This document shows positions 1,270-50,900 of a stretch of DNA of 64,000 bases, one piece after another; position 1 is the first letter of the stretch, and the number at the start of each line of letters is the position of its first letter. Below the pieces are notes generated by a model. It was not told the origin of the DNA and searched no databases. It saw only the letters and a list, made by a program, of their open reading frames with translations. The DNA comes from Euglena gracilis (Eukaryota), in assembly GCA_039621445.1 (NCBI GenBank), contig CP154954.1, positions 10,807,521-10,871,520 on the forward strand, written 5' to 3'. Made by a program: the position numbers and the translations under genes.

Positions 1270-1529
1270 ACCCCCCCCCCCTATTTGTCCCCCCCCCCTA
1301 ATTGGCCAGAGCCCAGGTGGCCAATTAGGGGGGGGGGGGTTACTCATTTCAAGGGAAAATGCCTTTATTCGGGTGTTTTACGGGGGTTCGCGACTATGAA
1401 GGACGGGGTCCAAGTGGCCAATTAGGGGGGGGGTAGGGGTAACCCCCCCCCTAATTGTCCCCCCCCCCCCTAATTGGCCAGAAGGGGGGTCCGGGCCGCC
1501 CGGAGGGCGGCCAAATAGGGGGGGGGGGT
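1270..1529. mobile_element. MITE-like insertion between the two methyltransferase domains
   Basis: Ends acccccccccccctattt ... aaatagggggggggggt are inverted repeats; internal ctaattggcca/tggccaattag repeats. Confidence 0.6.
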
Positions 1530-1539
1530 GTTGGTAGGG

Positions 1540-1757
1540 TTATGCTCTTAGGAAAGTTTGAATGGATGAAATTGAGAAAGAATTTCAGGTTACGCAGAAA
1601 GGGATTGTTTTGCAACCAGCCAAAATGCCAGGTGTGAAAAGTTTTGTGGTGCGGATGATGATGGCATGAAAAAGGAATGGGGGGCGGACGAAACGTTGTT
1701 GATGAACCCCCCCTGGACTTTGTGGCCTGAGGTGGCTGAAAAATTGAAAAATTCCAA
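1540..1757 (+). pseudogene. N-terminal half of an N6-adenine DNA methyltransferase domain (NPPW catalytic motif)
   Basis: RDCFATSQNARCEKFCGADDDGMKKEWGADETLLMNPPWTLWPEVAEKLKNS: D-x-FA-x3-N, a conserved W, and NPPW at 1705-1716, as in phage Dam-like and DIRS MT domains. Confidence 0.8.
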
Positions 1758-1995
1758 TAATCAACATGGACAAAAGTCAGATTTTGAACACCGGGTCTTT
1801 TCCGCAAAAGCCCATGAAAGGGATTCTCACTCCACCACAACTTTGGTTTGAAATATTCGACAATTTCCAAAGTTTTTTTGACCAGCCAATCTGCCCCCTC
1901 CAAATTTCTGACTCCCAACGTTTTCGCCACGGTATATTCTGTACATGGCAACCCCGCAGCGATGATCTGAAAATATCCGGGGGGGGGACCTCCAA
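1756..1995 (-). pseudogene. Central catalytic part of a C5-cytosine DNA methyltransferase
   Basis: GYFQIIAAGLPCTEYTVAKT...ADWLVKKTLEIVEYFKPKLWWSENPFHGLLRKR...VHVDY: motif IV PC at 1948-1943 and motif VI ENP at 1828-1820. SAM-binding motif I is not in the window. Confidence 0.85.
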
Positions 1996-2014
1996 TATCT
2001 CAAGGCGATGCAGC

Positions 2015-2713
2015 TACCCCCTACCAAAAATTGAAGACATTTTGGTCAAACATGGAGCAAACCAAATGTTTTCGATTATCGATTTGAAGCAAGCTTTTCA
2101 CCAACAACCCTTACACCCAGAAAGCCGACCCATAACGTGTTGTTCCCCCAAAGGCATTTTTCAGTGGAGGGTAAATGTAATGGGTTTGACGAATGCCCCC
2201 CAACAATTTCAGCAAATGATCGATGACCGTTTGACACCAGTAAGTGATATAGCCACAGGGTGCATAGACGACATACTGGTACACATGAAAAAGATTTCAG
2301 GAGGGTGTTGGAAGTGCTCAAAACAGAACATTTGGAGGCTGGTGAATTCAAAGCCAAACTTTTTGTGGAGGAGGGTGAATTTGTGGATAGATTTTAGGAA
2401 ATGGGACTAGGAGGCCAGCACCGGGTAAGTTACGAGCGATCGAAAAGTGGGAAGTTCCAAAAAATTACGGCTTTGAGGGCCTTTTTGTGATTCACAAATT
2501 ATTACAATGCACACATTCACATGTATGTGGAAGTAGCTGCCGATTGCAAGACAAATTGAAAGTCCCCAGGGAGCTGGGAAAGAAAGGAAGTCGAAAACCT
2601 GCGGAATTTGATGGGGCGGATTTAAAAGCTTTTGAGGAGCTGAAAAAAAGGTTGTGTTCGGGCCTAATGTTGCAACGAGTAGACCCAGATAAACTCTTTG
2701 TGCTAAGGGTTGA
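2015..2713 (+). pseudogene. Ty3/gypsy reverse transcriptase plus connection/start of RNase H (degenerate, truncated)
   Basis: YPLPKIEDIL...FSIIDLKQAFHQ...MGLTNAPQQFQ...CIDDILV (YxDD mutated to CIDD at 2261-2272), later AFEELKKRL...LFVLRVD; frameshifted. Confidence 0.92.
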
Positions 2714-21100: not shown

Positions 21101-21223
21101 TCGTGTGCGGGGGAGGGGAGACAGCCTTCAGACTGCCAGTGATGTGATTCGAACAGCCACGGCTGCCACGAACCCACCCATTCCATGAGCGACGTCACAG
21201 CGAGTTGCGAGGGGGCTCTCCGC

Positions 21224-23911
21224 TCACGGCACCACAGCATTCAGCACCACGCCGTCCTCCACGAACGCCTTGATGACCCGCACAGCCTCCAGCGCCGTGG
21301 CGTCTGACAGAGGCGCGATGCGAGAGAGCGATGCGGCACCCCTCACGTAGGCTACCACCCCCGACGCGACCATGCACTCGCCTGGCCTCGAAAACATTGT
21401 ACAAAAGTGTGCAAAAATGCGCAGAAATGCACAAAAAAATGCACAAGAATGCGTACTTTTTGAAGAAAAAAAATGCGCAAAATGCTCCAAATTTTGAGAG
21501 AAAATGTGCAAAAATTATATGAAAACGTACGTAAAACCAATATACAATAATTGTATTTTAATTTTAACCAAACAAAAATTTTTAAAAATTTTTTGACCAA
21601 TTAAATTTTTTTAAAAAATTTTAACCAATTTACATTGCATGGAATCATGAGGAAAATTTCAGTTTCAAAATTCTTTAAAATTTGCAAAAAATTGCAAAAG
21701 TGGTAAAAAAAAGCGAAAAAAATTGTAACAATCACGAAAAAATGTGTTTCCAAAAGCAAAAAAAAAATGTGTTTGAAAAAATTGAATTTTTTTTGCACAA
21801 AAAAACGCAAAAATGCGGAAATATGCGAAACACATCCATCTTTGCTGTCACCACACAGGCCCACCAGCGTTGCACCCGGACGACTTGTTAGCAGGCCGGA
21901 CAATTGCAAGAACCCCAACAATTTCCCGGGTTGCGTCTCATAGGCATTTCAATGGATTTTGACCCTGTGCAGTCTGGGGGATCGTCTACTGCATTGCGAC
22001 ACAAATAAACACCAGTCGCGGAATGCCACAAAACACCCACACAATCCTGCTGCGCACAACCAAGAGAACTCACTTTGAAAATGACATAAAACTGGACACA
22101 AACACACACCACATCTACACACCCACGCACCCACACAACACACGCACTGCACATGCAAACGCACACACACACACACGCGCGCGCGCACACACACACACAC
22201 ACAACACACAACACACACACCACACACACACACACATACAACACATAAAGAACACACAATGCGCAAAATGCACAACACACAACCACCCACCTTGATAGAC
22301 ACACAACCCCAATCCACCAGCACCCACACACCCTGGGCCTGCTCAGTGGCGGCCCCGATGTGGTGGGTGATGTACACGTTGGGGTGCTCTGCGAGGGCGG
22401 AGCGGAACTCCCCGGCCCCACCGGCAGGCTCGCCCTGGAACACGTCCAGCCCTGCGCCAGCGGGGGGGTTTGCAACACCCTGAGACGCTGTTTGAAATTG
22501 TTTGAATCTCAGATGCTCTTCACAAACACGTGGACTTAGTTGACGCCGTGTTACCCGCCCCCCTCGTCCGACGGGGTTCCCTCACCCTGTGACCAGGTGG
22601 GGGGGGGGTCGTAACACCCCCATGACCTGCAACCTGTGACCGGGGGGGGTGGTCGTAGGTAAAATGGTCTTAAATTTTTCGCAACCTGCAACCTGTGACC
22701 GGGAGGGATGGTCATAACACCCCCATGACCTGCGACCTGCAACCTGCGACTGGGGGGGGGTGGTCGTAAATGAGGGGTGGTCGAACGACAGGGGGGGGGG
22801 GGGTAGTCTCAGAAATACCCACTGTTAAGGCTTCAAAAAAAGATTGACTTTGGACCTTTGCGCAAATGAACTATTTGAGTGGTTCCTTTGCGTGCAACTG
22901 CACAAAGCACCACTCAAAAAGTCCCAACAATGTCCATCGAGAGGGGGACAGCGCTTTGGACCCCAGGCCACAGCTCTCCCAGTCCCGACTGGTCTTCAAG
23001 AGGCTGCTATTGAGGGCCGCATCCTGGAGATTTCCTGAAGGTGCAATGTCTGACTGGCTCACACACACACCAATGCCCACCCAACCACACGCACACACAC
23101 AACACACACACAACCACACACACACACACACACACACACATGCACATGCGCACACCCACACCCACACACCCAAACACCCACATCCACACCCACACCTACA
23201 ACCCCCACCCCCCCACCCGCCCACACACACTTTGGGATATTTGGCCATCTACAATTTTGGTATGCCAGTCAGGTAATTTTTTTAAGTTGGAAAAAGCTCC
23301 CCCCCAAGGGGGTGGGGGTCCAGAAAGAATCGAACCCGGCTGCCAGTCTGGACCTGGGTGGGACCCGAAAACAGGCAAAAAACCCAAATACAGTTCAGTT
23401 GTCCTTTTTTTGGGCCAAAATTTTGAGGTGAACCCACAAAAAAATACCAAAAATGGCCATTTTTCCAAAAAAAAATTCGGCGCTTTGTACCAAAATTCTT
23501 CCGGGTCCACTCGTCTTCGCTGGGCCCCTTTGTGTGGATGCATGTACGGGATCGAATTAAAATACCTGTATTATTAAAAAATAAAAAAGAAATTTAATTA
23601 AAAAAATATAAATAATTTTTGGCCCGAAAAATCCACAACGTAAGAAGACGGAGACCGGCTCGGATGCCCTTCTCCCGCAGGGCCCACAGCAGGGCTTCCT
23701 CGTCCACCACGGAGCCCCGCGTCGTGTTCAGGAAGAGGGCCCCCGGCCGCAACGCCCGGAAGAAGTCCCAGCCCGCCAGCCCCGCCGTCTCCGTGTTGGG
23801 CGGCACAGCCCGGCCCGCACGGCCTCCGCGACGGCGGCCAACCCGGTTGGCTGCCCAGCGGCCTACCCGGAGCCGTGAGCGTGAAAAGCTGCAAATCGAT
23901 GGACTTTGGCG

Positions 23912-23945
<34 letters not shown>

Positions 23946-26900
23946 CTCCGGCGCCTGAGGCACCGAGGGGCAACTTTCAGCCAATTTTGGCCGGCTGAAC
24001 CCCCCCCCCCCCGCCCCCCCTGTATCAGACACAACCACGGGGGGGGGGGGGTAAGAACGGTTGGGTTGGGGCAAGGATTTAGGTTCAAATATAGGCTGAA
24101 TTTATCCCTGATTGACGTGTCGCCCCGATTCCTAAGTTTGACTGAGCGGGACTGAGCAGTCCCAGAAACCCCGGGTGGTGGCTGTCGACAACCTCCAACC
24201 CCATTCTGGCAGTTGGAGGGGCGGTCCGATCACCCTTCGCCTCGCGCTTCAATTACCCCCCCCCCCCAACCCCCCGGTCGACCTTCCTTGCCTTGTCTTG
24301 CTGTCAGACCGCCCCGATTCCCCCTCCCCAGCCCACCACCCCACCCAGGGTGGGTGGGTGGGTGGGGGCCTCTCCCCCCTGGGGGTTGAAAATAAGCAAT
24401 CTTTCGGCCCCTGGTCGGATTTCGAGATTGGGGGGGGGGGGGCTGAAGCCACAAAAATTTCACAAAAACTTCGAATTTCCGTGCCAATGATGAGGGATTG
24501 AAGACATGTTTATTTTTTCCCCTGTGGACGAGAAATGCGCCGTATTGCGTTCCTCGTAGGGACCTGTCGACAACCAAGGTAATGAGCATGTCGCCATCCA
24601 CAGGTTTATCGACGAAAAGAGTTTAAATTTACGAATTGGTTTGAAATTACCTTTGTGTTATTTTGTATTTCCAATGGATTTTATTAATCTTTAAATTACC
24701 ATTAATTATTCTTTTTTCAAAATAAGTTTGCAGCCTTCACTCCCCCACTCCCCCCGAGGGGTTCCCACCAGTTTGACAGCCCAGGTTGCCCAGGCAAATT
24801 TCCCTCGAAAAATGCCATTATAAAAAGGGGGTCCTCAATCGAGGATGAAAATATAATCCAAAAAAATTCAATAAGATTTTCGTCTTTTTCAATGAAAGAA
24901 CTGACAAAAAAAATGTGAAAAAAATGGAAACAAAATCAGCCAGTACAGAACCATACTAAAATATAGGTGAGCGGGCACAGAAGACAGAGGTGGGGAGACT
25001 GGTACAATTGAAAACCATTGTTGTTACTTCCAATGAGGTTGCAGTTAGCAATATTTTCCGAAATATGATTTTGTTCATCGCGGGTTTAGACGACATTCCA
25101 ACCTGTTTCACACAGGCTGCAAATGCAAACAAAAATGCAAATGCAAAACGTGGGAAAAAGTCATCACCTCAAGCGGTCTGCAGCTCTGAGAGAAATGAGT
25201 CTTGGTGGGGGGGGATTCCTTCGAGGCCAGGGCCCTGGCCGGCTGCGACGTGCAGCGTCACGACGTGTGCGTCGGCGGCCACAGCCAGCGGGGAGTGGCG
25301 GAAGCCGACTGCCTCCAGGCGGATTTCCTGTTGTCCCCGGGGGCCACCCAGCCTTCTTGTTGAAACCGACCCAGGGTTCCACGCTTTTGTTCTTCTGTCC
25401 GAAATCTGGAATGTGCTAATGTTTTCTGCCACTTTGAGGATGACACAAAATGGAAAAAAATGCAACTTTAAACTTTAATAAAAAACACAAAAATAATAAT
25501 TTAATAAATTTAATAATATTTCAAATTTATTCAAATAATAATAATAAATTGAAAACCAATTTAAATAATAATTTAAGAAAAAACTTTAAAACTTTAAAAA
25601 ACAGAGGAATCTGAAAGGGAATGGCGGCACAAAAGAGGCACTCCGAGTTGTTTGGGACCCTGGGTGCCGACAGCAGATATCAGGGATGCTGCAGTCCACC
25701 CTGAAACAAGCCGTGCCCGACAGAATTCTCCGTTGAAGAAACCCAGTGCTGGGGACATGGACAAGTTGGTTGGCCATGCATCTCTCTGTTGAGATCTGGA
25801 CCCCGTCAGCGCCGAGCCCATGGACGCCAACCCCCTATGCCTACGAAAGGCAGAGGACGTTCCCCCCTGGCCTTCAGCAAAGCAGCCTGGTCCCAAGCTT
25901 TGCAGCCGTCTCTGCAGTTAGAGACCTGGGCAGAGACCGGAATGCAGAATGCAGCCAGCTGTGAGCTGTGAAATCCGAAGGAGCGAGGTCCCGCCTCGGC
26001 CATCCTCGCAGATCTTCCATTCAGGAACTAAAACCAGCCCCCCCCACCCCCCAATGCCAAGGAGGATTGTGGACAAGGCATTTGCCGATTTGGCGACCAT
26101 GGGGAGAGCTCACGAGCAACCTGACGCAATGTCACCCACACAAGTTGTTTTGAGACCTGGGTTGATATCATCTTGACAAATCAAAAGCCCCAAGGTATGC
26201 TGATATTTTCCAAAAAAAATAACTATCAGTTTCCAGTGATGGGCTGTCACCGACGCCTTGTCACCGACATCTTGTCACTGACGTCTTCTCACCGACGTCT
26301 TCTCACCGACGTCTTGACCACCAACGTCTTTTCACCGACGTCTTCATAGATTCACTTAGTCGTTTCCCGGGGGGGCACTTTTTTCCTGGGACCCCAACCC
26401 ACCCACCCACTCTTGGAAACACCCCCAGGGGAGGCTTTAAAATGAATCTACAATTGCGAACCCTTATGCCAAGACCTGATGGCGACAATTTCGCATGGGG
26501 CTGCTTCTTTGCTCTTGTTTGGGCAAAAAAATTCAGGAAGGGGGGACTGTTGTTGGAGGCTGTCAAAAATGTGAAAATTGGGGGAAGATTGGGAAAATTG
26601 ACATTGGTTTTGGGCTTTACTCCAAATGTGGCGGGAAGCAATGGCACTGAAGGAAGAATTTCATTATAGAAATACCTTTCATTGGTTAAACAAATCTATC
26701 AGCAAAATATACACAGAACCTTCCACTGAAGAGCTCAGCAATTAATGAATATAACTGATTGCAACTTCTCAAGCCAATGCGGTGGAAGAGAAATGAAGGG
26801 GACAAAGCAAAAGGTGAAGAAAGATTGTGGAAATTTGAAAAACTTGCAGATCTCCCCCCACAAACACATTCACGTGCATATGTGCTGCTGAGATGGAGCA

Positions 26901-29900
26901 AACAAAACACACACACACACACACACACGCACACACACACACGCACGCACACACACACACGCACGCACGCACACACACACAGACACACACACACACACGC
27001 GCGCGCGCGCACACACACACACACACCGGCCCCAACAGATGACGTTCATCTGCATCAAGAACAGAGCTCTTTAGATTTTGAAAGGTTTGAATAGCTCCTG
27101 TTGACCCTCTTGCCCCCTGCCCCCCCATGGTTTATCAAATCAAAAATGGGGTCCTCCAGTCGGTTGGTGGATCTTTGGACAATCGGTTGGTGGATCTTTG
27201 GACAATATATTTTTATCTCAAGAAATCTCAAAAAAAGCGTTTAAAAAAGGGAATTTTTGCGGGAAGATGAAAGAAGAGAGTGAGTAAGAACAATTTCAAC
27301 TGTTTTGACACACAGACACATGGGTAATTTTTCATTTCAAATAATTCACATATTTTAGAAGAGGTTTCTTTTTGAGCCAGCCAGTGAAACTCGGGTCTAA
27401 TTTCTATGCATATTGGCGCACAATCTTAAAGTTTGACCGGGCGTCAACGATTGGCAGAAGCCATTCACCAACTCAGAAAATCAGCTGGGAATCCTAATGG
27501 TTTCACATTTCAGTTTCACAACCACCTTCGGGGAAAATGGCATGTGGTAAAATGCCAAGGAACATTGGATGTTTCAGGACATCACCTGTTATGTTGCAAA
27601 TTCAACAACCTTTACAAGCGACACGCAGCGGTCCAAGACTTCCTCACCTCCTTGGCTCAACGTGCCGGATTCCAAGCCATGGAAAATGGCATTCCCACCA
27701 GACCAACCAAGAGATATATTGAAAGACAGCGATAAGCACCAAAAAAAGTGAGATGACTAGGCAAATTTTTACCAAAATATAATTGGGATTTTTCAAACTA
27801 CCCCCTCCCCAGTGTGGAACACCCATTCATATGAAACTGTCGACCTCAAAAAAAAGAAAAGGTATTTTTGGGCCGGCAAATACTGGAACAAATAAAATTC
27901 CACCGTCACCACATTCTATGAGCCGGGGTTTGGGCACCACCGAAAAAAATCAGGGTGTACAAACAATTGCTGTCCTTGCTGTGAAATGTGAGTTCAAAAA
28001 ACAAACAATTATCCCCTGATGTGATTCTGTGTCTGTGCGCACGCAGGGCGCACGCTGGGAGTGATTGGAAGTGGAAACATCGCCCAAGCCGTGATCCGCA
28101 TCGCGCTTGGAGGCAGGGTTTTTTGTGACGTTGGTGATGTTGCCATTCACACATTAGTGCACACTGGCACGTCCCCGCCCCAGCCCCTGTGGTGCAATGC
28201 GCTGCGCAAAGTTGAGGGCAGTCTGACAACGAGAGCAGCAGAAAATATATGCCCATGGGGTGCCCAACAACCCACGAAATTAAGAGTGCACAAATAATGA
28301 AAAATGACGTCACATAAAAAACTTCTCTGCCTCATTCAGATACCCGCCGCCCCCCCGGCAATTGTCGCGCGACAAATCGGGCAGCACACAGGGGGGGGGG
28401 TGACAATTGCCCGGGGGCGTCAATTGCCCAGGGGTGTCAATTGCCCACCCATGTAAAAACCAAATAACCAAAAAAAAAACATCTAAAACACAAATGAACG
28501 CGCAAAAATGCAGCTATGGTTGTGATATTTTGCAGAACATTTGGTATGCGAAAGTTCTCAGCACGTTGTAGCAAAATAGAAGATCAATCGAGTTATGTCG
28601 GCGAAAAGAAAATTCACAGACATCTTCTGCGGGAGGGTGACAAATTGGGCAGCACAGAGGGGGGTGACAATTTCCCGGAGTGACAAATTGGCGGGCACAG
28701 CCAGGGGTGACAATTGCCCGGGGCGTCAATTGCCTGGGGGCGTCAATTGCCCGGGGGGGGGGGGTATGATAATGTACGAATGCAATACAAGAGTATTCAA
28801 GTACAGAATGACTGGCTTCACCAAATCCGAAATCGTCGAACAGAAGAAAACTTAAAAAAACCTAAAATGAACCAAAAAAAATTGGCCGGATGTTTTGTTG
28901 TTTTCTCTATTTCAAACTTAAGCAAATTTGAAATCAAAACAAATTGGCACAAAAAAGTTTAAAAATATAAGCACAATGCCCTTCGTCATTTTTTGAGAGC
29001 AAACAATAGGACGTATGACCAAAATATGCTCCGATGTCATCCATTGTTACCACCCGGTTAGAAAAAAATATTATTCATCGCGGGGGAATTTTGCGATAAC
29101 CGACAAACCAGCAATCACACACACTGACCTGTCATCCCGGCGCACCCCCGGACTGCACACCTGCCAGGCCGAGGGCGGCGGAGTGCTTTGCCTTGGCCCA
29201 CCGCCCCTGCCGGCTGTCGGTGACGTTTTCGACGATCCGGCGGCAGGGTTCGCGTTCAAGCAGGGGAGATGGAGTGGGGTGGGGGGCACCCCACACCTAA
29301 ACAGCGGCATCGTCAAAAGGATCCATTTGGTGTTCGGCATTTTGTTTAAAAGTGCTTTGAAAGAAGGATGGGTTTTGGTGCAAAATTTCGGGGTCCCATG
29401 AATCGCCCTCCTCCCGAGTCCAGACCAGGCATTTTTTTTAAGGCGCCTTAAAACACCATAAAAATTTTTTCGAGCAAAAAGAAATAACAAAATATGGCAA
29501 AAACAAGCCAACTCGGGGGGAGATGATTTTTGGCTTCGCTGAAGCATTGTCTATCAACCGAAAAAAAAAATTGTTGCTGTTCTGAACTTTTTGATTTTCA
29601 ACCTGAACCAACTTTGGTTCGATGCCAGCATGGTTTTTTGAGTGCTCTTGGAAAAATAGACACCTTAAAAATACTCAAAAGTTCTCAAAATTGCGTTAAA
29701 AAAGTGTTTTTTAAGTTTTTGAAAACCTTAAAAAACGCTTGGAAAACTTTAAAACTTTTTGAAAAAAATTCGCCCTAAAAATGCCTGGTCCAGACCCTCC
29801 ACAGTGAAGAGCCGATACTTTAGAAAACCCTGTCCGGCGGTCAAGAGCGATCATGAGGCCGATTGTGAGCTCCGCCACCGCTGGAAATGACGGAAAAAAA

Positions 29901-32340
29901 AAAAAAAAAAAAACTAAAAACAAAAAAAAAAAACAAAAACACAAGAGCCACCAACCAACTATAAGCAAAGACCACAGGAAAGTTTGTCGTCCCACCGGGG
30001 TTGACAACCTTTTCGGGAAGCAACCCGTGGTTCATCCAACCCGGGATGCTGCCACCTGATTGCGCTTGCTGCAGCAGAATGCAGCGGCCAAAATCCCCTC
30101 CCTGATTTCTGTCATCCAATGATGACCATCGTCAGCCTGGGCGGTCCTTAAATAAAAAAATTCCTGTTCCAGCACATCAGCAGGTCCTTAAATAAACAAT
30201 CCTGTCTTTTTATGACCGCCTTGTTGTCGGGCCTTGTCCTCGAGATCGTGTGGGCCTGATACCCCCCCCCCCCCCGGGAAACTGTCATGCCTGAGAACCC
30301 GTCCGGGTCCTTGCCGGAAAACTGTCAGGGTCCCTATTGCAGGCCAACCTGTGAGTAGGAAGTTGTCAGGGAGCCCGGTACTGCCAACCTGCCAGGGTCA
30401 TTTTTTCTTTTACTTTCGCTTGAAATGCCCTCCAGGGGAACTGTCAGGGTCCCGCCCGGGAATCCATCAGGGTCTCTGGTTCCGGCCTACTTGTCATTAT
30501 ATGAAATTTCAGGGTCATTGTCAGGGTCCCGGTGACAGTTTTTCGGGGGGGGGGTAGGAATGTCAAGTTGCAAGTTTCAAGAAACCCAACTCAACATGCA
30601 AATGTCATTGTGTCATAAAAAATAAAATAATAAAATAAGCAAATGAGCTACCTTGTTCAAGGGATCAAAGCTTCGAGAAAAAGAACCACGAGGGTCACCG
30701 AGGCAAACGCACACACCGGTGGCGTTCATTCCGGGGCAATTGCAGACGTGGATTCCCCGCTGAGCAGCATGGGCGACGTCGACGTTGTCCACTCCCGCCC
30801 CTGTGGCCACCCCGCACCAAATCATATCTCAAAACAAGGAAGCCATGTGTGGATTTTGGAAAAACATCACCAAGAAAGGCAATTGAACTTCACCAAAAAT
30901 ACCATTCAGTTCAAAAATGCAAAACGCACCCGCAATAACCTTCAAGAGGCACCGCACCAGCTATACAATGCACAATTGGACACAGCAGCACACACACACA
31001 CACACACCAGGCGGGGTGTCTTGTTCCATATGTGGTGTCTCTCCATAGCAGGCACACCTTCCCGGGGGGGTTAGACCAGGCCACTTTTTAAGACGCCGGG
31101 GGGGGGGGGAGGGGGTCCCCTGGCGCGGGATTGGATTCCCCCCCTAGGGGGGGGGGAATCCAAAAAATCGGGCCGTGTGAGGGCATTCCCCAAACCCCCC
31201 GGGACCTTCCCCCGGGGGGGGGGGGGGTCCAGACCCGGACCTACCCCCCCCCCCCAGGGGGTCTTCTGACTTGAAAAGAAGTTTGGGTTGGACCCTGGTG
31301 CCTGCCGACCAAGCCAAATTTCCCTTGAAAATAGCCATTTTTCAGCCACAGCGCCTTCGGCTCTGGGGTGTGCTGTGGCACCACCCACCCCAAAACCCAA
31401 CCTCCGGGGAAGTCAAAAAATGACCGACCCTTCTGCCTGCCCATAGCACCCACCCCCCAGAGGTGCGCACTTCCGCTTAAAGAAGCCTGACAACCACCCC
31501 CACCCACCCACCCACCCACCCACCCACACACACAGAGGCACATAACACACACACATAGCACACCCACACCTACTCACGTTCCCACCCACACACCCACACA
31601 CCAGCCCGCAGAATGAGCTGCAATGATGGGCAGGCGTCCATCATGGCTGCAGTGACCTTTGTGGACCTTACGACCTGCCACAAGGCGGGAAAAAGAGTCA
31701 AGGAACAACTTCTGAGTCTCAATCAGAGGTTTTTTCAGCACCCGGGGGAGGGAGGGTCCGGACACACGTACCCACCCTCTGGGGGGGGAGATCCACTTTT
31801 GGGAGTCAATTTTGGGTCCAAATTTTTTTTTGGTGCTTCATGCGGAAAATAGAAGAAAACCTCGCCTCTGGCGGGGTACCCACACAGCCCGACACCCCTG
31901 CCCGGAGGGGGGGGGGGCTCGGCCCACCCCCCAGGTCACGAACTAAAAAAATATCTGGTCTCAGTGCCTCACCTTGACACAATGGAATCGGATTGCCTGA
32001 AAAATTCAACCACGTTGCACACGGATGTGACCATTGTTGCTGTCAGTCTCGTTGCATCCTCTGGGCGACACCACGCAGGTCGTCCACCCACTGAGTGTGA
32101 GGTTTCGAGGCAAAAAACAAAAACGTGCCTGATTTACGGGCCTGTTGTATGAAAATGGCAACTGTGGCCGGGGGCACACCAGGACGGCCGGCTGGTGCGT
32201 CGCCAGCGCGGCCCGGAGCTCCGCGCCGCCTCCCGCGAGCCCCACCGCGGCGCACCGCACGTCCCGCAGCGCGGCGAGCCCGCAGGGGGCGAGTGGGTCC
32301 GCCAGCAACACCGTGGGCCGGGCCGGGGGTGGCCCGGTGC
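21224..32340 (-). CDS. D-isomer-specific 2-hydroxyacid dehydrogenase, D-3-phosphoglycerate dehydrogenase (SerA)-like, no ACT domain; multi-exon, N-terminus unresolved, one exon inverted
   Basis: Exons (-): 32340-32180, 31674-31602, 30800-30717, 29880-29836, 29238-29161, [28047-28110 on +], 27056-27027, 25840-25802, (25668-25666?), 25310-~25245, ~23801-23656, 22451-22332, 21303-21224. Motifs: [91 protein letters not shown] (catalytic R, E and H present). Confidence 0.92.
22554..22803. mobile_element. TA-flanked MITE with poly-C/poly-G TIRs
   Basis: ta-cccgccccctcgtccgac ... gtcgaacgacagg(g)n-ta. Confidence 0.6.
26245..26345. repeat. 14-bp tandem repeat (tcaccgacgtcttc-like)
   Basis: Several degenerate copies directly visible. 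Confidence 0.85.
27537..27695 (+). mobile_element. Fragment of a restriction-like-endonuclease (CRE/R2-group) non-LTR retrotransposon C-terminus
   Basis: [41 protein letters not shown]: zinc-knuckle-like C..H..C followed by the RH motif. Confidence 0.65.
28047..28110 (+). CDS. Inverted exon of the dehydrogenase gene encoding the NAD-binding GxGxxA loop
   Basis: cgcacgcag|gg cgc acg ctg gga gtg att gga agt gga aac atc gcc ... ctt gg|aggcaggg = (G)[21 protein letters not shown]. 64 nt, phase 1 in and phase 2 out, matching the - strand neighbours exactly. Confidence 0.9.
28343..28764. mobile_element. TA-flanked MITE (caattgccc subterminal repeats)
   Basis: ta-cccgccgccccccggcaattgtcgc ... gcgtcaattgcccg(g)n-ta. 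Confidence 0.7.
29239..29835 (-). other. Nonconventional intron
   Basis: Starts gga-cagggtt and ends aaccctg-ccgcc; 8-nt junction direct repeat ccgccgga; join DR-R-IVEN. Confidence 0.85.
30262..30554. mobile_element. TA-flanked MITE (gggaaactgtca family; related pieces near 47700-47810 and 48715-48862)
   Basis: ta-(c)n gggaaactgtca ... tgacagttttt c(g)n-ta. Confidence 0.7.
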
Positions 32341-32471
32341 CTGCAGCGGGAAGACACCTGAACCCCCATCCATTGGAAGGAGTTTGGGCGGCTGGCTAAC
32401 CCCCCATGAGGGTCCCCCGGCTGGAACTGGGCCCCACCAGGGGTCAAAGGTGCCAAAAAAAAAAAACTGCC

Positions 32472-47900: not shown

Positions 47901-50900
47901 GCATCGGACCAACGTTTTGGGCGGTTAGCTTGGGGAGAGCCCTATGGTGCCCTGGGGGCCGTCGAGCTTCACCCCCGTCATCACCATCGAGACGGAAACT
48001 GGCTCGGGGACATGCCACCGCTTTTATTATATTATTTGGACCTGGCAAGGGTATATTATTTGGGGGTTTACAATCGCCAACGAAGCGTTTGTGGTACCAA
48101 TAATAGTAATAATCACAGTGTCAAATTGATTCCTCAGCTTGACACATGTATACCCACATATTGCTGGCAAGCATGCCAGACTGGGATGTATGGCATGCTG
48201 TATGCCCAACGACCACCCAGCTCACCGTGGTGCACCTCGGTTCCCAATTCACACAGACCAGACATCCATTTAGTGTGGTGCACATAAGGCGTGTGAACCA
48301 CAACATTTTTTGGGGCGTTCACAGATGAACCACAAAAAATTTCGTGGTGTCGGCAATCTTCCTTTTGGTGTCCACAAATCAACCGCAAAAAAAACTTTGG
48401 CGTCCACAAAAATTTTGATCTCCAGAAGACTTGATTCAAAATCATAAAAAATTTAAGCAATTTTAAAACTAAAAGTGGATTGATCTTTAGATACTTTAGA
48501 CAACAAAGCGGCCACTCTGGTAGGGCGACACTTTGGGGGTCAAATTTGCCTTTGGCCCCTTTGGGGTCAAAAAGAAATAGCCACTTTGAGGGTAAACCAA
48601 GTTTGCCAAGCTACTGCTTGCGTTCAGGGCGGGACAGGGATCAATGGGAAGGACTGGTGGCAGAGCCACCCTCACTTGGTTGCCTGGGGGGAGTCTGGCA
48701 TGCAACAAAAGCCCCCCCCCCGTGGGAAACTGTAACCTGACAAATAAGCGAGCACAGAGGCAGGCGACAGGTCCCTGAGGTGACAGGTCAGCGAGTACGG
48801 GGTTTAGGTGACAGTTTCCCGAGGGTGACAGTTTCCAAGGGTGACAGTTTCCCGGGAGGGGGTAGGAACCACAGAAATTTAGGTTCACAACGGCTCCAAA
48901 GGTACAGTTTCAAGTTCGTGGTTTTGAATCAAAAGCCCCAAAAATGAGCAGACGTGGCGGAGGAGACCTCCGTGCAGCATCCACAGGGCGGCCGGTATTC
49001 CCATGTCTCCCGGGAATCCATAGGGGCGGACCCGGCAGTCGCCCGAAAAGGGGATAGGTCGAAACAGGCCAGCTGGCGCTGAGCGTCGGGTGGTGGGCTC
49101 AGCTGATTGGCTGGGTTCAACAAAGCTTCCATTCAATGCAGGGTGGTCCTTAACAGGGCGCTGCTTGACGACCCCCAGGGGTGAGTTTTTTTATTGAACT
49201 TTTATTTCACAGGTGGGCGTTATTATTCTTCACTTTATGTTCAATTTCAAATTCTTTAAAATTCATTTTTTTATTTGCCATTTCATTTTTCATATTTTTT
49301 GGTGTACCCCCCCCCCCCGGAAACTGTGGGGCCCTACTCAGAACACGGCCAGGCACGGTAGCCCAGCGGTGGCAGTGGCCGGACGACGCGGCCGCGTACT
49401 GCAACACGTGGCGCGCGGTGGCGGTGGCGACGGCGAACGAGGCGGTCAGCAGCAGCGCCGCGCCGGCCGCCCGGACGACGCCCTGCGTGCCCGCCGTCGT
49501 GCGCTGGATCGGCCCCGCCCCGCCGCCCACTGCAAGGGCTGCCCGACCCCCTTTTTTTGATTTGTGAAGAACTTGGTCATTGACATCCTCAGCGGCGTGG
49601 GGGAAGGCAGACCAGTAATCCCTCATGTAGGACTCGAAGCTGTCTGTGAGAGCTCTTTGGGTGAACCCTCTTGCATGCAGGCCCTCGATGTAGTATTGCA
49701 CGGCTTCCTTGAACGCCACCATGGTGTTGGTGACAGTGCCGGCTCGCACCAGGAGTCCTTTCAGCGGTGTCTTTGGTGTGGATGCTGGTCCGTTCCACGT
49801 AGCGCTGCGGTTTCCAACGCCAGCCTGCACCCTTTGGTTCGAGGTGTAGCTGGACGAAGTCTCCACGGGTGGTGATGCGCATACCAAGGAAAACCACTGA
49901 GAGCGGGTCCTCTGAGGTTCGCCGGTGCTCCATTTGGTAGTCCAGCAGGTGCAGTGGCGGGCGTCCAAACCCGAGTATGTCATCGATGTAGTGGAAGGTG
50001 TGGAAGAAGTTCCTGGCAATGTCGACCTGCCCGTTGGCAAGTAACTGATGGTTTTGATTTAATTTTAACTTTTTAACTTTAATTTTAATTTTTCATTTTT
50101 TCCATTTTATTTTAATTTAAATTTATTTATTAGTTATTATTTGAAAGTTATTTAAATTTACTTTAAGCAATTTTAAGTTATTGTAAGTCAGTTTAGGTTG
50201 AGTTAATTCAATTATTTCCAATAAATTGTTTTCTTTTTAAGTCTCATTTTTCATTTTTCTGCACTTTTTGATCCGGGGGGGGGGGGGGGGTGGGGCATTC
50301 CCAACCCCAGCAACCCGTTGGCGGCACACTCTTCGGATTTACTTTGGGATCCCAAAGAAATCGTGCCAAGGAAAAAACGCAACCCCTTCCCGACGGTGGC
50401 TTTCAGCAGGGGGGGGGGATGCGGACCGCAGAATTTGCTGTTTTCGGGACAATCAGAAAAACAAAAGCCCAGAAAAGCATTCAAAACAGTTGCCTTTTGT
50501 TTCGGGTCTCCACAAGGACCGGCCCCCAAAGGGAGAGGTAGAGCCCAACCCGGGTCAACAAACAAACAAGGAAGTTCTCCAGTGCAGCAGGAAACAGAAA
50601 CTGATGAACTGCAGAGCCTTTCACAGGTTTGACTGGCGGTTGCTGATGGCTGGCATTTGCCATCTTAGATACCTGCCCCAAGTGTTGCAGCGTCCAGCGT
50701 GCAATTGCATTGGGGCATTGTGCTTTACTTGCAAAGAGACAGCGACTACACAAAGACGTGCGAACGGTTCCTGGCGAACGGCCGAGACGTTTAACCGGGA
50801 CATGCATGTGCCACTCCACGGTGATTCCGTTATTCCGAATACCCGAAAGTGGCACGGCATTATCACTCGGGCCATTCACGTACGTACGCATGTGAACGTC

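What the first reader, a model, noticed from the sequence alone, without database searches (positions are those of the whole stretch)
27057..29160. An essential exon of an otherwise intact dehydrogenase gene lies on the opposite strand
Seen: all other exons are on -, but the Rossmann-loop exon [22 protein letters not shown] is at 28047-28110 on +, and I see no - strand copy in the gap. Its AG acceptor (28045-28046) matches the phase-1 GT donor at 29160 (-). Its nonconventional 5' intron end agg-cagggtttttt (28111, +) can pair, with G-U wobble, with aaagagctctg-ttctt ending at 27057 (-), giving in-frame LAG-RTLG...[13 protein letters not shown]. No other exon has a stop or obvious frameshift. 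Possible explanations: a mis-oriented assembly segment; a recent null inversion allele; an invertible on/off switch; or inter-strand trans-splicing, which is conceivable in a lineage with trans-splicing and structure-defined introns.
Basis: partly seen in the sequence, partly recalled or inferred. Interest (0 to 1): 0.85.

Follow-up and report, generated by a model that had tools for sequence, protein, structure and literature searches.

The report
Inverted exon in euglenid dehydrogenase gene
One short, essential exon of an otherwise orderly phosphoglycerate-dehydrogenase-type gene of a Euglena-like alga lies on the opposite DNA strand, most likely through a small recent inversion or an assembly error, so that as assembled the gene cannot make its enzyme unless pieces of two different RNAs are joined.

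Summary
A SerA-type 2-hydroxyacid dehydrogenase gene runs on the minus strand from about 32.3 to 21.2 kb in at least 11 exons. Its NAD-binding loop exon (28047-28110) is on the plus strand, and the window holds no other copy. When that exon is read from the plus strand, the eleven exons give 966 nt without a stop. The product is 59% identical to the Eutreptiella braarudii orthologue, with no gap at the two junctions. Without the exon the frame breaks.

The intron before the exon is a conventional GT...AG intron. The intron after it carries the published Euglena nonconventional signature, and its two ends pair about as well as those of a cis intron in the same gene. Each intron is therefore split between the two strands.

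No inverted repeats flank the exon, so an invertible switch is unlikely. I obtained no read evidence, DNA or RNA, and no second copy or same-species sequence. I therefore cannot separate three readings:
- a real recent inversion giving a null allele, which I favour at about 0.42;
- a mis-oriented assembly segment, about 0.33;
- inter-strand trans-splicing, about 0.09.

The start codon and the C-terminal ACT domain were not found.

The parts
32180..32314 (-). Exon 1 as far as it is recognisable (TVLLADPL...AVL). No ATG at the orthologous position; the frame stays open upstream to 32395.
   Evidence: tblastn and alignment with homologues; flanks
31602..31674 (-). Exon 2, with conventional AG and GT borders
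30717..30800 (-). Exon 3 (AGVDNVDV...NCPGMNAT), with conventional borders
   Evidence: Pfam 2-Hacid_dh E 1.1e-7
29836..29880 (-). Exon 4 ([15 protein letters not shown])
29239..29835 (-). Intron 4, a nonconventional intron in cis (GGA-CAG-GGTTTTCT ... AACC-CTG-CCGCC|G). Used here as the internal comparison for intron 6.
   Evidence: duplex -18.2 kcal/mol; about 6 of 2000 shuffles reach it; signature from PMC12501133
29161..29238 (-). Exon 5 ([27 protein letters not shown]), ending in phase 1
29159..29160 (-). GT donor of conventional intron 5 (GTGTGCAG...)
28045..28046 (+). AG acceptor of intron 5 on the opposite strand, preceded by a pyrimidine/TG-rich tract
28047..28110 (+). Exon 6, the Rossmann NAD-binding loop (G)[20 protein letters not shown](G). 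It is the only copy in the window.
   Evidence: (2-Hacid_dh_C positions 35-57, E 0.011)
28111..28134 (+). 5' end of nonconventional intron 6 (AGG-CAG-GGTTTTTT...)
27057..27080 (-). 3' end of nonconventional intron 6 (...AAAGAGCT-CTG-TTCTT), which pairs with the 5' end on the plus strand
   Evidence: duplex -17.7 kcal/mol; about 4 of 2000 shuffles reach it
27027..27056 (-). Exon 7 ([11 protein letters not shown]), followed by a GT donor inside a (GT)n run
25241..25355 (-). Exon 8 (start 25355 or 25352; both keep the frame)
23656..23800 (-). Exon 9 (PNTETAGL...[13 protein letters not shown]...IRAG)
   Evidence: Pfam 2-Hacid_dh_C E 1.9e-9
22332..22451 (-). Exon 10 (LDVFQGEP...[12 protein letters not shown])
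21227..21303 (-). Exon 11 ([26 protein letters not shown]). A TGA follows in frame at 21226-21224; the 3' limit of the exon is uncertain.
28339..28775 (.). MITE-like element with terminal inverted repeats and 17-nt GTCAATTGCCC units, inside the stretch between exons 5 and 6. Not shown to take part in the rearrangement.

Best explanation
A short piece of DNA carrying exon 6 and the adjoining intron ends has been inverted, recently and for real, inside a minus-strand SerA-type dehydrogenase gene of a euglenid. One breakpoint lies in conventional intron 5 and the other in nonconventional intron 6. This leaves the acceptor of intron 5 and the 5' end of intron 6 on the plus strand. The minus-strand transcript then carries the exon only in antisense. 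Cis-splicing can at best join exon 5 to exon 7, which shifts the frame and removes the NAD-binding loop, so this copy is a null allele or a young pseudogene. On this reading the enzyme comes from another haplotype or paralogue. What is shown: the strand of the exon, its uniqueness in the window, the signals, the frames and the orthology. What is inferred: that the inversion exists in the organism, that it is recent, and that another working copy exists.
For: - Exon 6 lies on the plus strand and nothing else in the window matches that part of the protein.
- All signals and phases are those of a once collinear gene. The e5/e6/e7 junction sequence agrees with the Eutreptiella orthologue.
- The two ends of intron 6 form a cognate nonconventional pair. 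They fit 5'-N3CDG...CH'GN5-6|R, and their duplex of -17.7 kcal/mol compares with -18.2 for cis intron 4. This is what an inversion with a breakpoint inside that intron would leave behind.
- The exon and its flanks show no decay, so the event is young.
- Without the exon there is a stop at residue 141.
- The 64 kb window has no N and runs through microsatellites, long homopolymers and transposon fragments. From general knowledge, this suggests a long-read contig, where small inversion errors are uncommon.
- Hints that this copy may be decaying in other ways: no ATG at the orthologous start, an in-frame TGA after exon 11, and no ACT domain found.
- Transposon fragments and a MITE-like element lie in the affected introns.
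Against: - No DNA read, second assembly or second copy was examined, so the orientation rests on this assembly alone.
- The breakpoints were not found. No microhomology or repeat could be assigned to them.
- The strand-composition model gives only a weak signal. Windows starting at 27958-28108 look 'sense on plus' with first- and second-order models (-5.0 and -6.4, against 5th percentiles of -3.7 and -4.5). The third-order model does not show this, and the classifier is right for only 66-75% of the 95 control windows.
- Exons 1-10 are fully intact and well conserved, which would also fit a working gene.
- The pseudogene hints are weak. An N-terminal extension from an upstream exon, a conventional GTGAGC donor at the TGA, and small divergent ACT exons could explain all three.
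Confidence: 0.42

Rival explanations
1. Assembly artefact. In the organism the exon is collinear with the gene, and a short segment was mis-oriented when contigs were merged, scaffolded or gap-filled.
For: - Every feature is exactly what a normal gene would show if one segment were flipped: perfect signals, phases and pairing of the intron ends, and no decay.
- Exons 1-10 are intact.
- Published euglenid assemblies include hybrid short-read/long-read pipelines with contig merging, scaffolding and gap filling (passages of PMC12501133). I do not know which assembly the window comes from.
Against: - There are no Ns in the window.
- No inverted repeats flank the exon that would make its orientation ambiguous to an assembler; the longest flanking inverted matches are 8-18 nt.
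- The window is contiguous through difficult repeats.
Confidence: 0.33
2. The inversion is real and the gene still works. The plus strand is transcribed across exon 6. The spliceosome joins exon 5 (minus RNA) to exon 6 (plus RNA) in trans, as it does with the spliced leader. The nonconventional machinery then joins exon 6 to exon 7 across two RNAs held together by the CAG.../...CTG end pairing.
For: - Both trans junctions have complete, in-phase signals.
- The intron-6 ends fit the genetically defined signature and pair as strongly as a cis intron.
- Neither the exon nor the other ten exons have decayed.
- A precedent exists for an inverted exon block rescued by trans-splicing through sequences that become complementary when the two strands are transcribed: C. 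elegans eri-6/7 (passages of bioRxiv 10.1101/2024.01.15.575659).
Against: - No RNA evidence of any kind was obtained.
- Two separate trans events of two different splicing systems would be needed to insert a 64-nt exon.
- My searches found no report of nonconventional splicing in trans or of inter-strand trans-splicing in Euglena nuclear genes (PMC12501133 has 0 occurrences of 'trans-splic').
- In eri-6/7, trans-splicing reaches a median of only 10%.
- Intact signals are equally expected for a young inversion or an artefact.
Confidence: 0.09
3. A programmed invertible DNA segment that switches the gene on and off.
For: Only the fact that one essential exon is inverted and intact.
Against: - No flanking inverted repeats that could serve as recombination sites. 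The best pairs around the exon are 8-18 nt at 75-100%, of the kind chance gives in A/T-run-rich DNA.
- No recombinase-like ORF was recognised in the ORFs I scanned (4 gap ORFs).
- From general knowledge, no such system is known in euglenid nuclei.
Confidence: 0.03

Closest known systems
C. elegans eri-6/7: an exon block inverted by transposon-mediated rearrangement, with function partly rescued by trans-splicing (Fischer and Ruvkun, as described in bioRxiv 10.1101/2024.01.15.575659; passages read)
   Same: Part of one ancestral gene lies on the opposite strand. Relatives have the collinear form. DNA repeats in direct orientation give complementary RNAs when the two strands are transcribed. Transposon remnants lie in the locus.
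   Different: Here a single internal 64-nt exon is inverted, so two trans junctions would be needed instead of one, and one of them is of the nonconventional type. No mRNA and no polymorphism has been shown. No long flanking repeats are present.
Euglenid nonconventional introns with the signature 5'-N3CDG-/-CH'GN5-6|R and end pairing (PMC12501133; passages read)
   Same: Intron 6 has AGG-CAG at its 5' end and CTG-TTCTT|G at its 3' end. The ends form a 14-bp-class duplex (-17.7 kcal/mol), like cis intron 4 of the same gene.
   Different: In this assembly the two ends lie on opposite strands. They cannot form the intramolecular hairpin that the published model requires.
Drosophila mod(mdg4) trans-splicing (PMC13490949 and PMC4387717; search listing and start of abstract only). 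That some variable exons lie on the antisense strand is recalled, not read.
   Same: Exons of one mRNA come from separate transcripts of one locus.
   Different: In mod(mdg4) the trans-spliced part is a 3' terminal module joined by one spliceosomal event. It is not an internal exon flanked by two different intron types.
SerA-type D-3-phosphoglycerate dehydrogenase / D-isomer 2-hydroxyacid dehydrogenases; orthologue in Eutreptiella braarudii (P0153, 408 aa)
   Same: Pfam 2-Hacid_dh and 2-Hacid_dh_C. 59% identity over 314 residues to P0153. Intronless metagenome homologues of about 400 aa are 49-58% identical to P0153.
   Different: The C-terminal ACT domain and the start codon were not found in the window. 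The substrate is not established: PDB neighbours include phosphite, glyoxylate and phosphoglycerate dehydrogenases at similar scores for one exon.

Membership tests
D-isomer specific 2-hydroxyacid dehydrogenase (SerA-like) | Catalytic-domain and NAD-binding-domain profiles match | tested here: met
   PF00389 E 1.1e-7 on exon 3. PF02826 E 1.9e-9 on exon 9, 0.0018 on exon 10 and 0.011 on exon 6. Collinear hits to a profile of 13 homologues.
D-isomer specific 2-hydroxyacid dehydrogenase (SerA-like) | Glycine-rich dinucleotide-binding loop GxGxxG/A | tested here: met
   GSGNIA in exon 6; the euglenid orthologue has GQGNIA. The loop is encoded on the plus strand.
D-isomer specific 2-hydroxyacid dehydrogenase (SerA-like) | Conserved Arg / Glu / His active-site residues (their roles are recalled from the family literature, not read here) | tested here: met
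   NTTRGS, QGEP and THHIG align with the orthologue.
D-isomer specific 2-hydroxyacid dehydrogenase (SerA-like) | C-terminal ACT regulatory domain of the 400-aa SerA type | tested here: inconclusive
   No profile or tblastn hit on the minus strand below 21233. Only a weak motif, DVAHGMGGFVAAV, lies behind an in-frame TGA.
Euglenid nonconventional intron | 5'-N3-C-D-G ... C-H'-G-N5-6 | purine-starting exon | tested here: met
   AGG-CAG at 28111-28116 (+). CTG-TTCTT ends at 27057 (-), and the next exon starts with G. Signature from PMC12501133.
Euglenid nonconventional intron | Intron ends base-pair | tested here: met
   Duplex -17.7 kcal/mol, reached by a fraction 0.002 of 2000 shuffles. 250 of 11000 24-nt windows of 25.0-30.5 kb pair better, among them the exon's own antisense.
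Euglenid nonconventional intron | Both ends lie on one transcript (intramolecular hairpin) | tested here: not met
   In this assembly the 5' end is on the plus strand and the 3' end on the minus strand.
Euglenid nonconventional intron | Removal is seen in RNA | not tested
   No reads could be laid.
Inter-strand trans-spliced gene (eri-6/7 type) | Exons of one coding sequence lie on opposite strands | tested here: met
Inter-strand trans-spliced gene (eri-6/7 type) | A mature mRNA joins them while the DNA has only the inverted form | not tested
   No RNA or DNA reads were obtained.
Invertible DNA switch | Inverted repeats at both borders of the invertible segment | tested here: not met
   Only 8-18 nt matches at 75-100%.

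The most novel reading that the evidence does not exclude
The inversion is real, this is the working copy, and the cell builds the mRNA from two antisense-overlapping transcripts. A spliceosomal trans-splice joins exon 5 to exon 6. A nonconventional intron whose two halves sit on different RNAs, held together only by their CAG/CTG end duplex, joins exon 6 to exon 7. This would be the first split nonconventional intron. It would show that this still unexplained splicing system needs only end pairing and not a continuous intron.
Probability: 0.08. Interest if true: 0.9.

Novelty: new member of a known kind. Interest (0 to 1): 0.45.

Why it matters
If the arrangement is an assembly error, it is a concrete, checkable mis-orientation that breaks a gene model. 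If it is a real inversion, it is a clean natural null allele of a serine-pathway-type dehydrogenase in a genome whose ploidy and allelic decay are poorly known. It would also be a natural experiment on nonconventional introns, whose removal mechanism is unknown. The two halves of one such intron have been placed on opposite strands while their pairing is kept. Existing RNA-seq could then show directly whether pairing in trans is enough for excision and exon joining.

Tried and rejected
- **Whole genome:** none is held for this window, so I could not search for a second copy or haplotype.
- **Rfam:** no match in the window.
- **Sequencing runs:** no RNA holder listed. Of 24 runs listed, 20 hold part of the stretch, and 4 are raw RNA runs of the same species label that are not indexed.
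- **Reads:** two attempts to lay reads returned no data, so there is no evidence on DNA orientation, splice junctions or strand of transcription.
- **Protein database searches:**
  - Exon 9 against longer proteins: 0 hits.
  - Exon 9 against proteins of near length: 1 hit at 60% identity.
  - The 141-aa antisense ORF spanning the exon: 0 hits.
  - No same-species protein or independent contig came out of these.
- **Exact 40-nt search of metagenome contigs:** 0 matches.
- **Related loci in metagenome contigs:** 452 pattern matches, 160 relatives, 80 kept. I examined 6 of the 80 (L001-L004, L007, L014). In all six the homologue is read without introns, and in L002 with one frame break. They give no euglenid genomic context.
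- **Breakpoint search:** looking for inverted or direct repeats found nothing above chance.
- **Strand-composition model:** suggestive with first- and second-order models, not with the third-order model. It is not used as evidence of breakpoint positions.
- **Pfam:** nothing for 4 ORFs in the 27.1-29.1 kb gap.
- **Earlier findings of this scan:** nothing.
- **A decayed minus-strand remnant of exon 6:** considered and rejected, because none is seen at protein or DNA level.
- **A retrocopy or captured fragment:** considered and rejected, because the exon keeps its intron flanks.
Full report
**What is there**

The window is eukaryotic DNA with no N, and no whole genome is held for it. Between about 32.3 and 21.2 kb the minus strand carries a multi-exon gene of the D-isomer 2-hydroxyacid dehydrogenase family. 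Pfam finds the catalytic domain in exon 3 (E 1.1e-7). It finds the NAD-binding domain in exons 9 (1.9e-9) and 10 (0.0018) and, on the plus strand, at 28025-28297 (E 0.011, profile positions 35-57).

A full HMMER search with exon 9 gave 412 relatives at E up to 0.001, among them full-length proteins of about 400 aa. One hit, P0004, shares its 90% cluster with P0153, a 408-aa protein that its source labels Eutreptiella braarudii, a euglenid.

tblastn with these proteins, and a profile built from 13 full-length homologues, place eleven exons in collinear order on the minus strand. The exception is the part that matches profile positions 140-162, which lies only at 28043-28111 on the plus strand. 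Ten profile hits scored above 3 bits. Eight are the minus-strand exons, one is this plus-strand exon (17.8 bits), and one is a 3.8-bit plus-strand hit at 2569-2622 that I regard as noise. At DNA level the exon is single copy in the window.

**Gene model and junctions**

Reading the flanks gives these exons:

| Exon | Window coordinates | Strand |
|---|---|---|
| e1 | 32314-32180 | - |
| e2 | 31674-31602 | - |
| e3 | 30800-30717 | - |
| e4 | 29880-29836 | - |
| e5 | 29238-29161 | - |
| e6 | 28047-28110 | + |
| e7 | 27056-27027 | - |
| e8 | 25355-25241 | - |
| e9 | 23800-23656 | - |
| e10 | 22451-22332 | - |
| e11 | 21303-21227 | - |

- Introns 1, 2, 3, 7, 9 and 10 are conventional (GTGTG... to ...AG).
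- Intron 4 is nonconventional: GGA-CAG-GGTTTTCT ... AACC-CTG-CCGCC|G.
- Intron 5 starts with GT at 29160-29159 on the minus strand. Its acceptor, CGCACGCAG, ends at 28046 on the plus strand.
- Intron 6 starts on the plus strand with AGG-CAG-GGTTTTTT at 28111. It ends on the minus strand with CTG-TTCTT at 27057, in front of an exon that begins with G.

This matches the sequence signature 5'-N3CDG-/-CH'GN5-6|R that was defined genetically for Euglena nonconventional introns (PMC12501133, passages read). The organism is therefore a euglenid. I did not determine the species.

The first 24 nt of intron 6 (plus strand) and its last 24 nt (minus strand) form a duplex of -17.7 kcal/mol. A fraction 0.002 of 2000 shuffles reaches that value. 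Cis intron 4 gives -18.2 kcal/mol, with a fraction 0.003. As a specificity check, 250 of 11000 24-nt windows of 25.0-30.5 kb pair better, and the best of these are the sequence's own antisense.

Joined by coordinates, the eleven exons make 966 nt with no stop. The product aligns with P0153 at 186 of 314 positions (59%). There are five gap columns, none at the e5/e6/e7 junctions. The orthologue has GQGNIA where the window has GSGNIA, and KGMDMKVVMWSR where the window has [12 protein letters not shown]. Leaving exon 6 out shifts the frame and gives a stop at residue 141.

**What the anatomy does and does not tell**

The exon was clearly once part of a collinear gene, or still is in the organism. 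Its acceptor matches the other conventional acceptors of the gene, its phases fit, and the downstream intron end has its partner in front of exon 7. All of this is expected whether the segment was flipped in the organism, was flipped by an assembler, or is used in trans. It does not discriminate between these.

I looked for the borders of the inverted piece.
- No inverted repeats of note flank the exon. The best pairs are 8-18 nt. This argues against a recombinase-type switch and against an orientation that is ambiguous to an assembler.
- The introns of the gene are A-rich on the plus strand.
- A strand classifier was trained on the other eight introns. With first- and second-order models it marks only windows starting at 27958-28108 as 'sense on plus': -5.0 and -6.4, below the 5th percentiles of 95 cross-validation windows. 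The third-order model does not show this, and the classifier is right for only 66-75% of control windows.
- At most this hints that the flipped piece is a few hundred bases rather than the whole 2.1 kb.

**Is the gene otherwise intact?**

It is intact for e1-e11, but three points remain open.
- At the position of the orthologue's initiator Met the window has Pro, and the frame is open upstream without an ATG. An upstream exon or a presequence could explain this.
- Directly after e11 there is an in-frame TGA at 21226-21224. It coincides with a good GTGAGC donor. It is followed in frame by a weak ACT-like motif.
- The roughly 90-residue ACT domain of the orthologue was not found anywhere downstream.

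These points fit a copy that is beginning to decay, but each has an innocent explanation.

**What could not be done**

Public runs of this organism exist. Fourteen DNA-type runs hold 53-60% of the sampled words, and four raw RNA-seq runs carry the same species label. The two attempts to lay reads returned nothing.

Other searches also gave no independent view of the DNA arrangement and no view of the mRNA:
- No same-species protein was found.
- The exact 40-nt search of metagenome contigs found nothing.
- Of the 80 related metagenome loci kept, the 6 I examined hold intronless homologues.
- The scan's earlier notes hold nothing.

**Verdict**

I favour a real, recent small inversion that makes this copy a null allele or young pseudogene (0.42). 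The reasons are that the contig is gap-free through difficult repeats, nothing would confuse an assembler at this spot, transposon debris lies in the affected introns, and there are weak signs of decay elsewhere in the gene.

| Reading | Confidence |
|---|---|
| Real recent inversion (null allele or young pseudogene) | 0.42 |
| Mis-oriented assembly segment | 0.33 |
| Inter-strand trans-splicing | 0.09 |
| Invertible DNA switch | 0.03 |

The trans-splicing reading has a precedent in C. elegans eri-6/7. There, inverted exons are rescued by trans-splicing, at a median of 10% (bioRxiv 10.1101/2024.01.15.575659, passages read). Here it would need two trans events, one of them by the nonconventional system. 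My literature searches found no report of that (in PMC12501133 'trans-splic' occurs 0 times).

The decisive data exist publicly: long DNA reads across 26.9-29.3 kb and RNA-seq junction counts for e5-e6-e7.

Noticed in passing
window 28339-28775; related terminus at 30258-30284: A MITE-like element with terminal inverted repeats (GATACCC + C/G run + GGCAATTG ... CAATTGCCC + G run + TATGAT) and internal 17-nt repeats of GTCAATTGCCC units. It sits in the intron stretch next to the inverted exon. A similar terminus lies in intron 3 of the same gene.
   Followed up: partly
window 21224-21226 and 21131-21223 (-): An in-frame TGA directly after exon 11 coincides with a GTGAGC donor. It is followed in frame by DVAHGMGGFVAAV, which resembles the start of the orthologue's ACT domain. 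This is either a nonsense codon in a longer exon or an intron start. The rest of the ACT domain was not found.
   Followed up: partly
window 32315-32395 (-): There is no ATG at the position of the orthologue's initiator. The frame stays open upstream (…[17 protein letters not shown]), and a possible acceptor CCGCTGCAG lies about 30 nt upstream. This suggests an N-terminal extension from an upstream exon or a lost start codon.
   Followed up: no
loci L001, L003, L004, L007, L014 (metagenome contigs): The euglenid enzyme's closest relatives outside euglenids are intronless genes of about 400 aa on large metagenome contigs. They are 49-58% identical to the Eutreptiella protein over the whole length. 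This suggests a bacterial-type SerA-like gene in euglenids.
   Followed up: partly
window 1748-2410 (+), 1451-1999 (-), 49207-50092 (-): Retroelement debris. One ORF has a reverse-transcriptase domain (RVT_1, E 2.2e-11). A neighbouring ORF has motifs that look like a cytosine methyltransferase (by eye; no Pfam hit). A frame-shifted ORF pair contains YIDDIL (no Pfam hit at E 0.1).
   Followed up: partly
window 27430-27735 (+): A 101-aa ORF in the intron stretch upstream of the inverted exon, on the same strand as the exon. It has a Cys/His-rich pattern reminiscent of retroelement C-terminal domains. It has no Pfam match.
   Followed up: partly
window 26885-27030, 22000-22330, 31500-31600 and others: Conventional introns of this gene tend to begin with (GT)n or GTGTG runs, seen as (CA)n on the plus strand. 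The microsatellites thus sit right at the donor sites.
   Followed up: no
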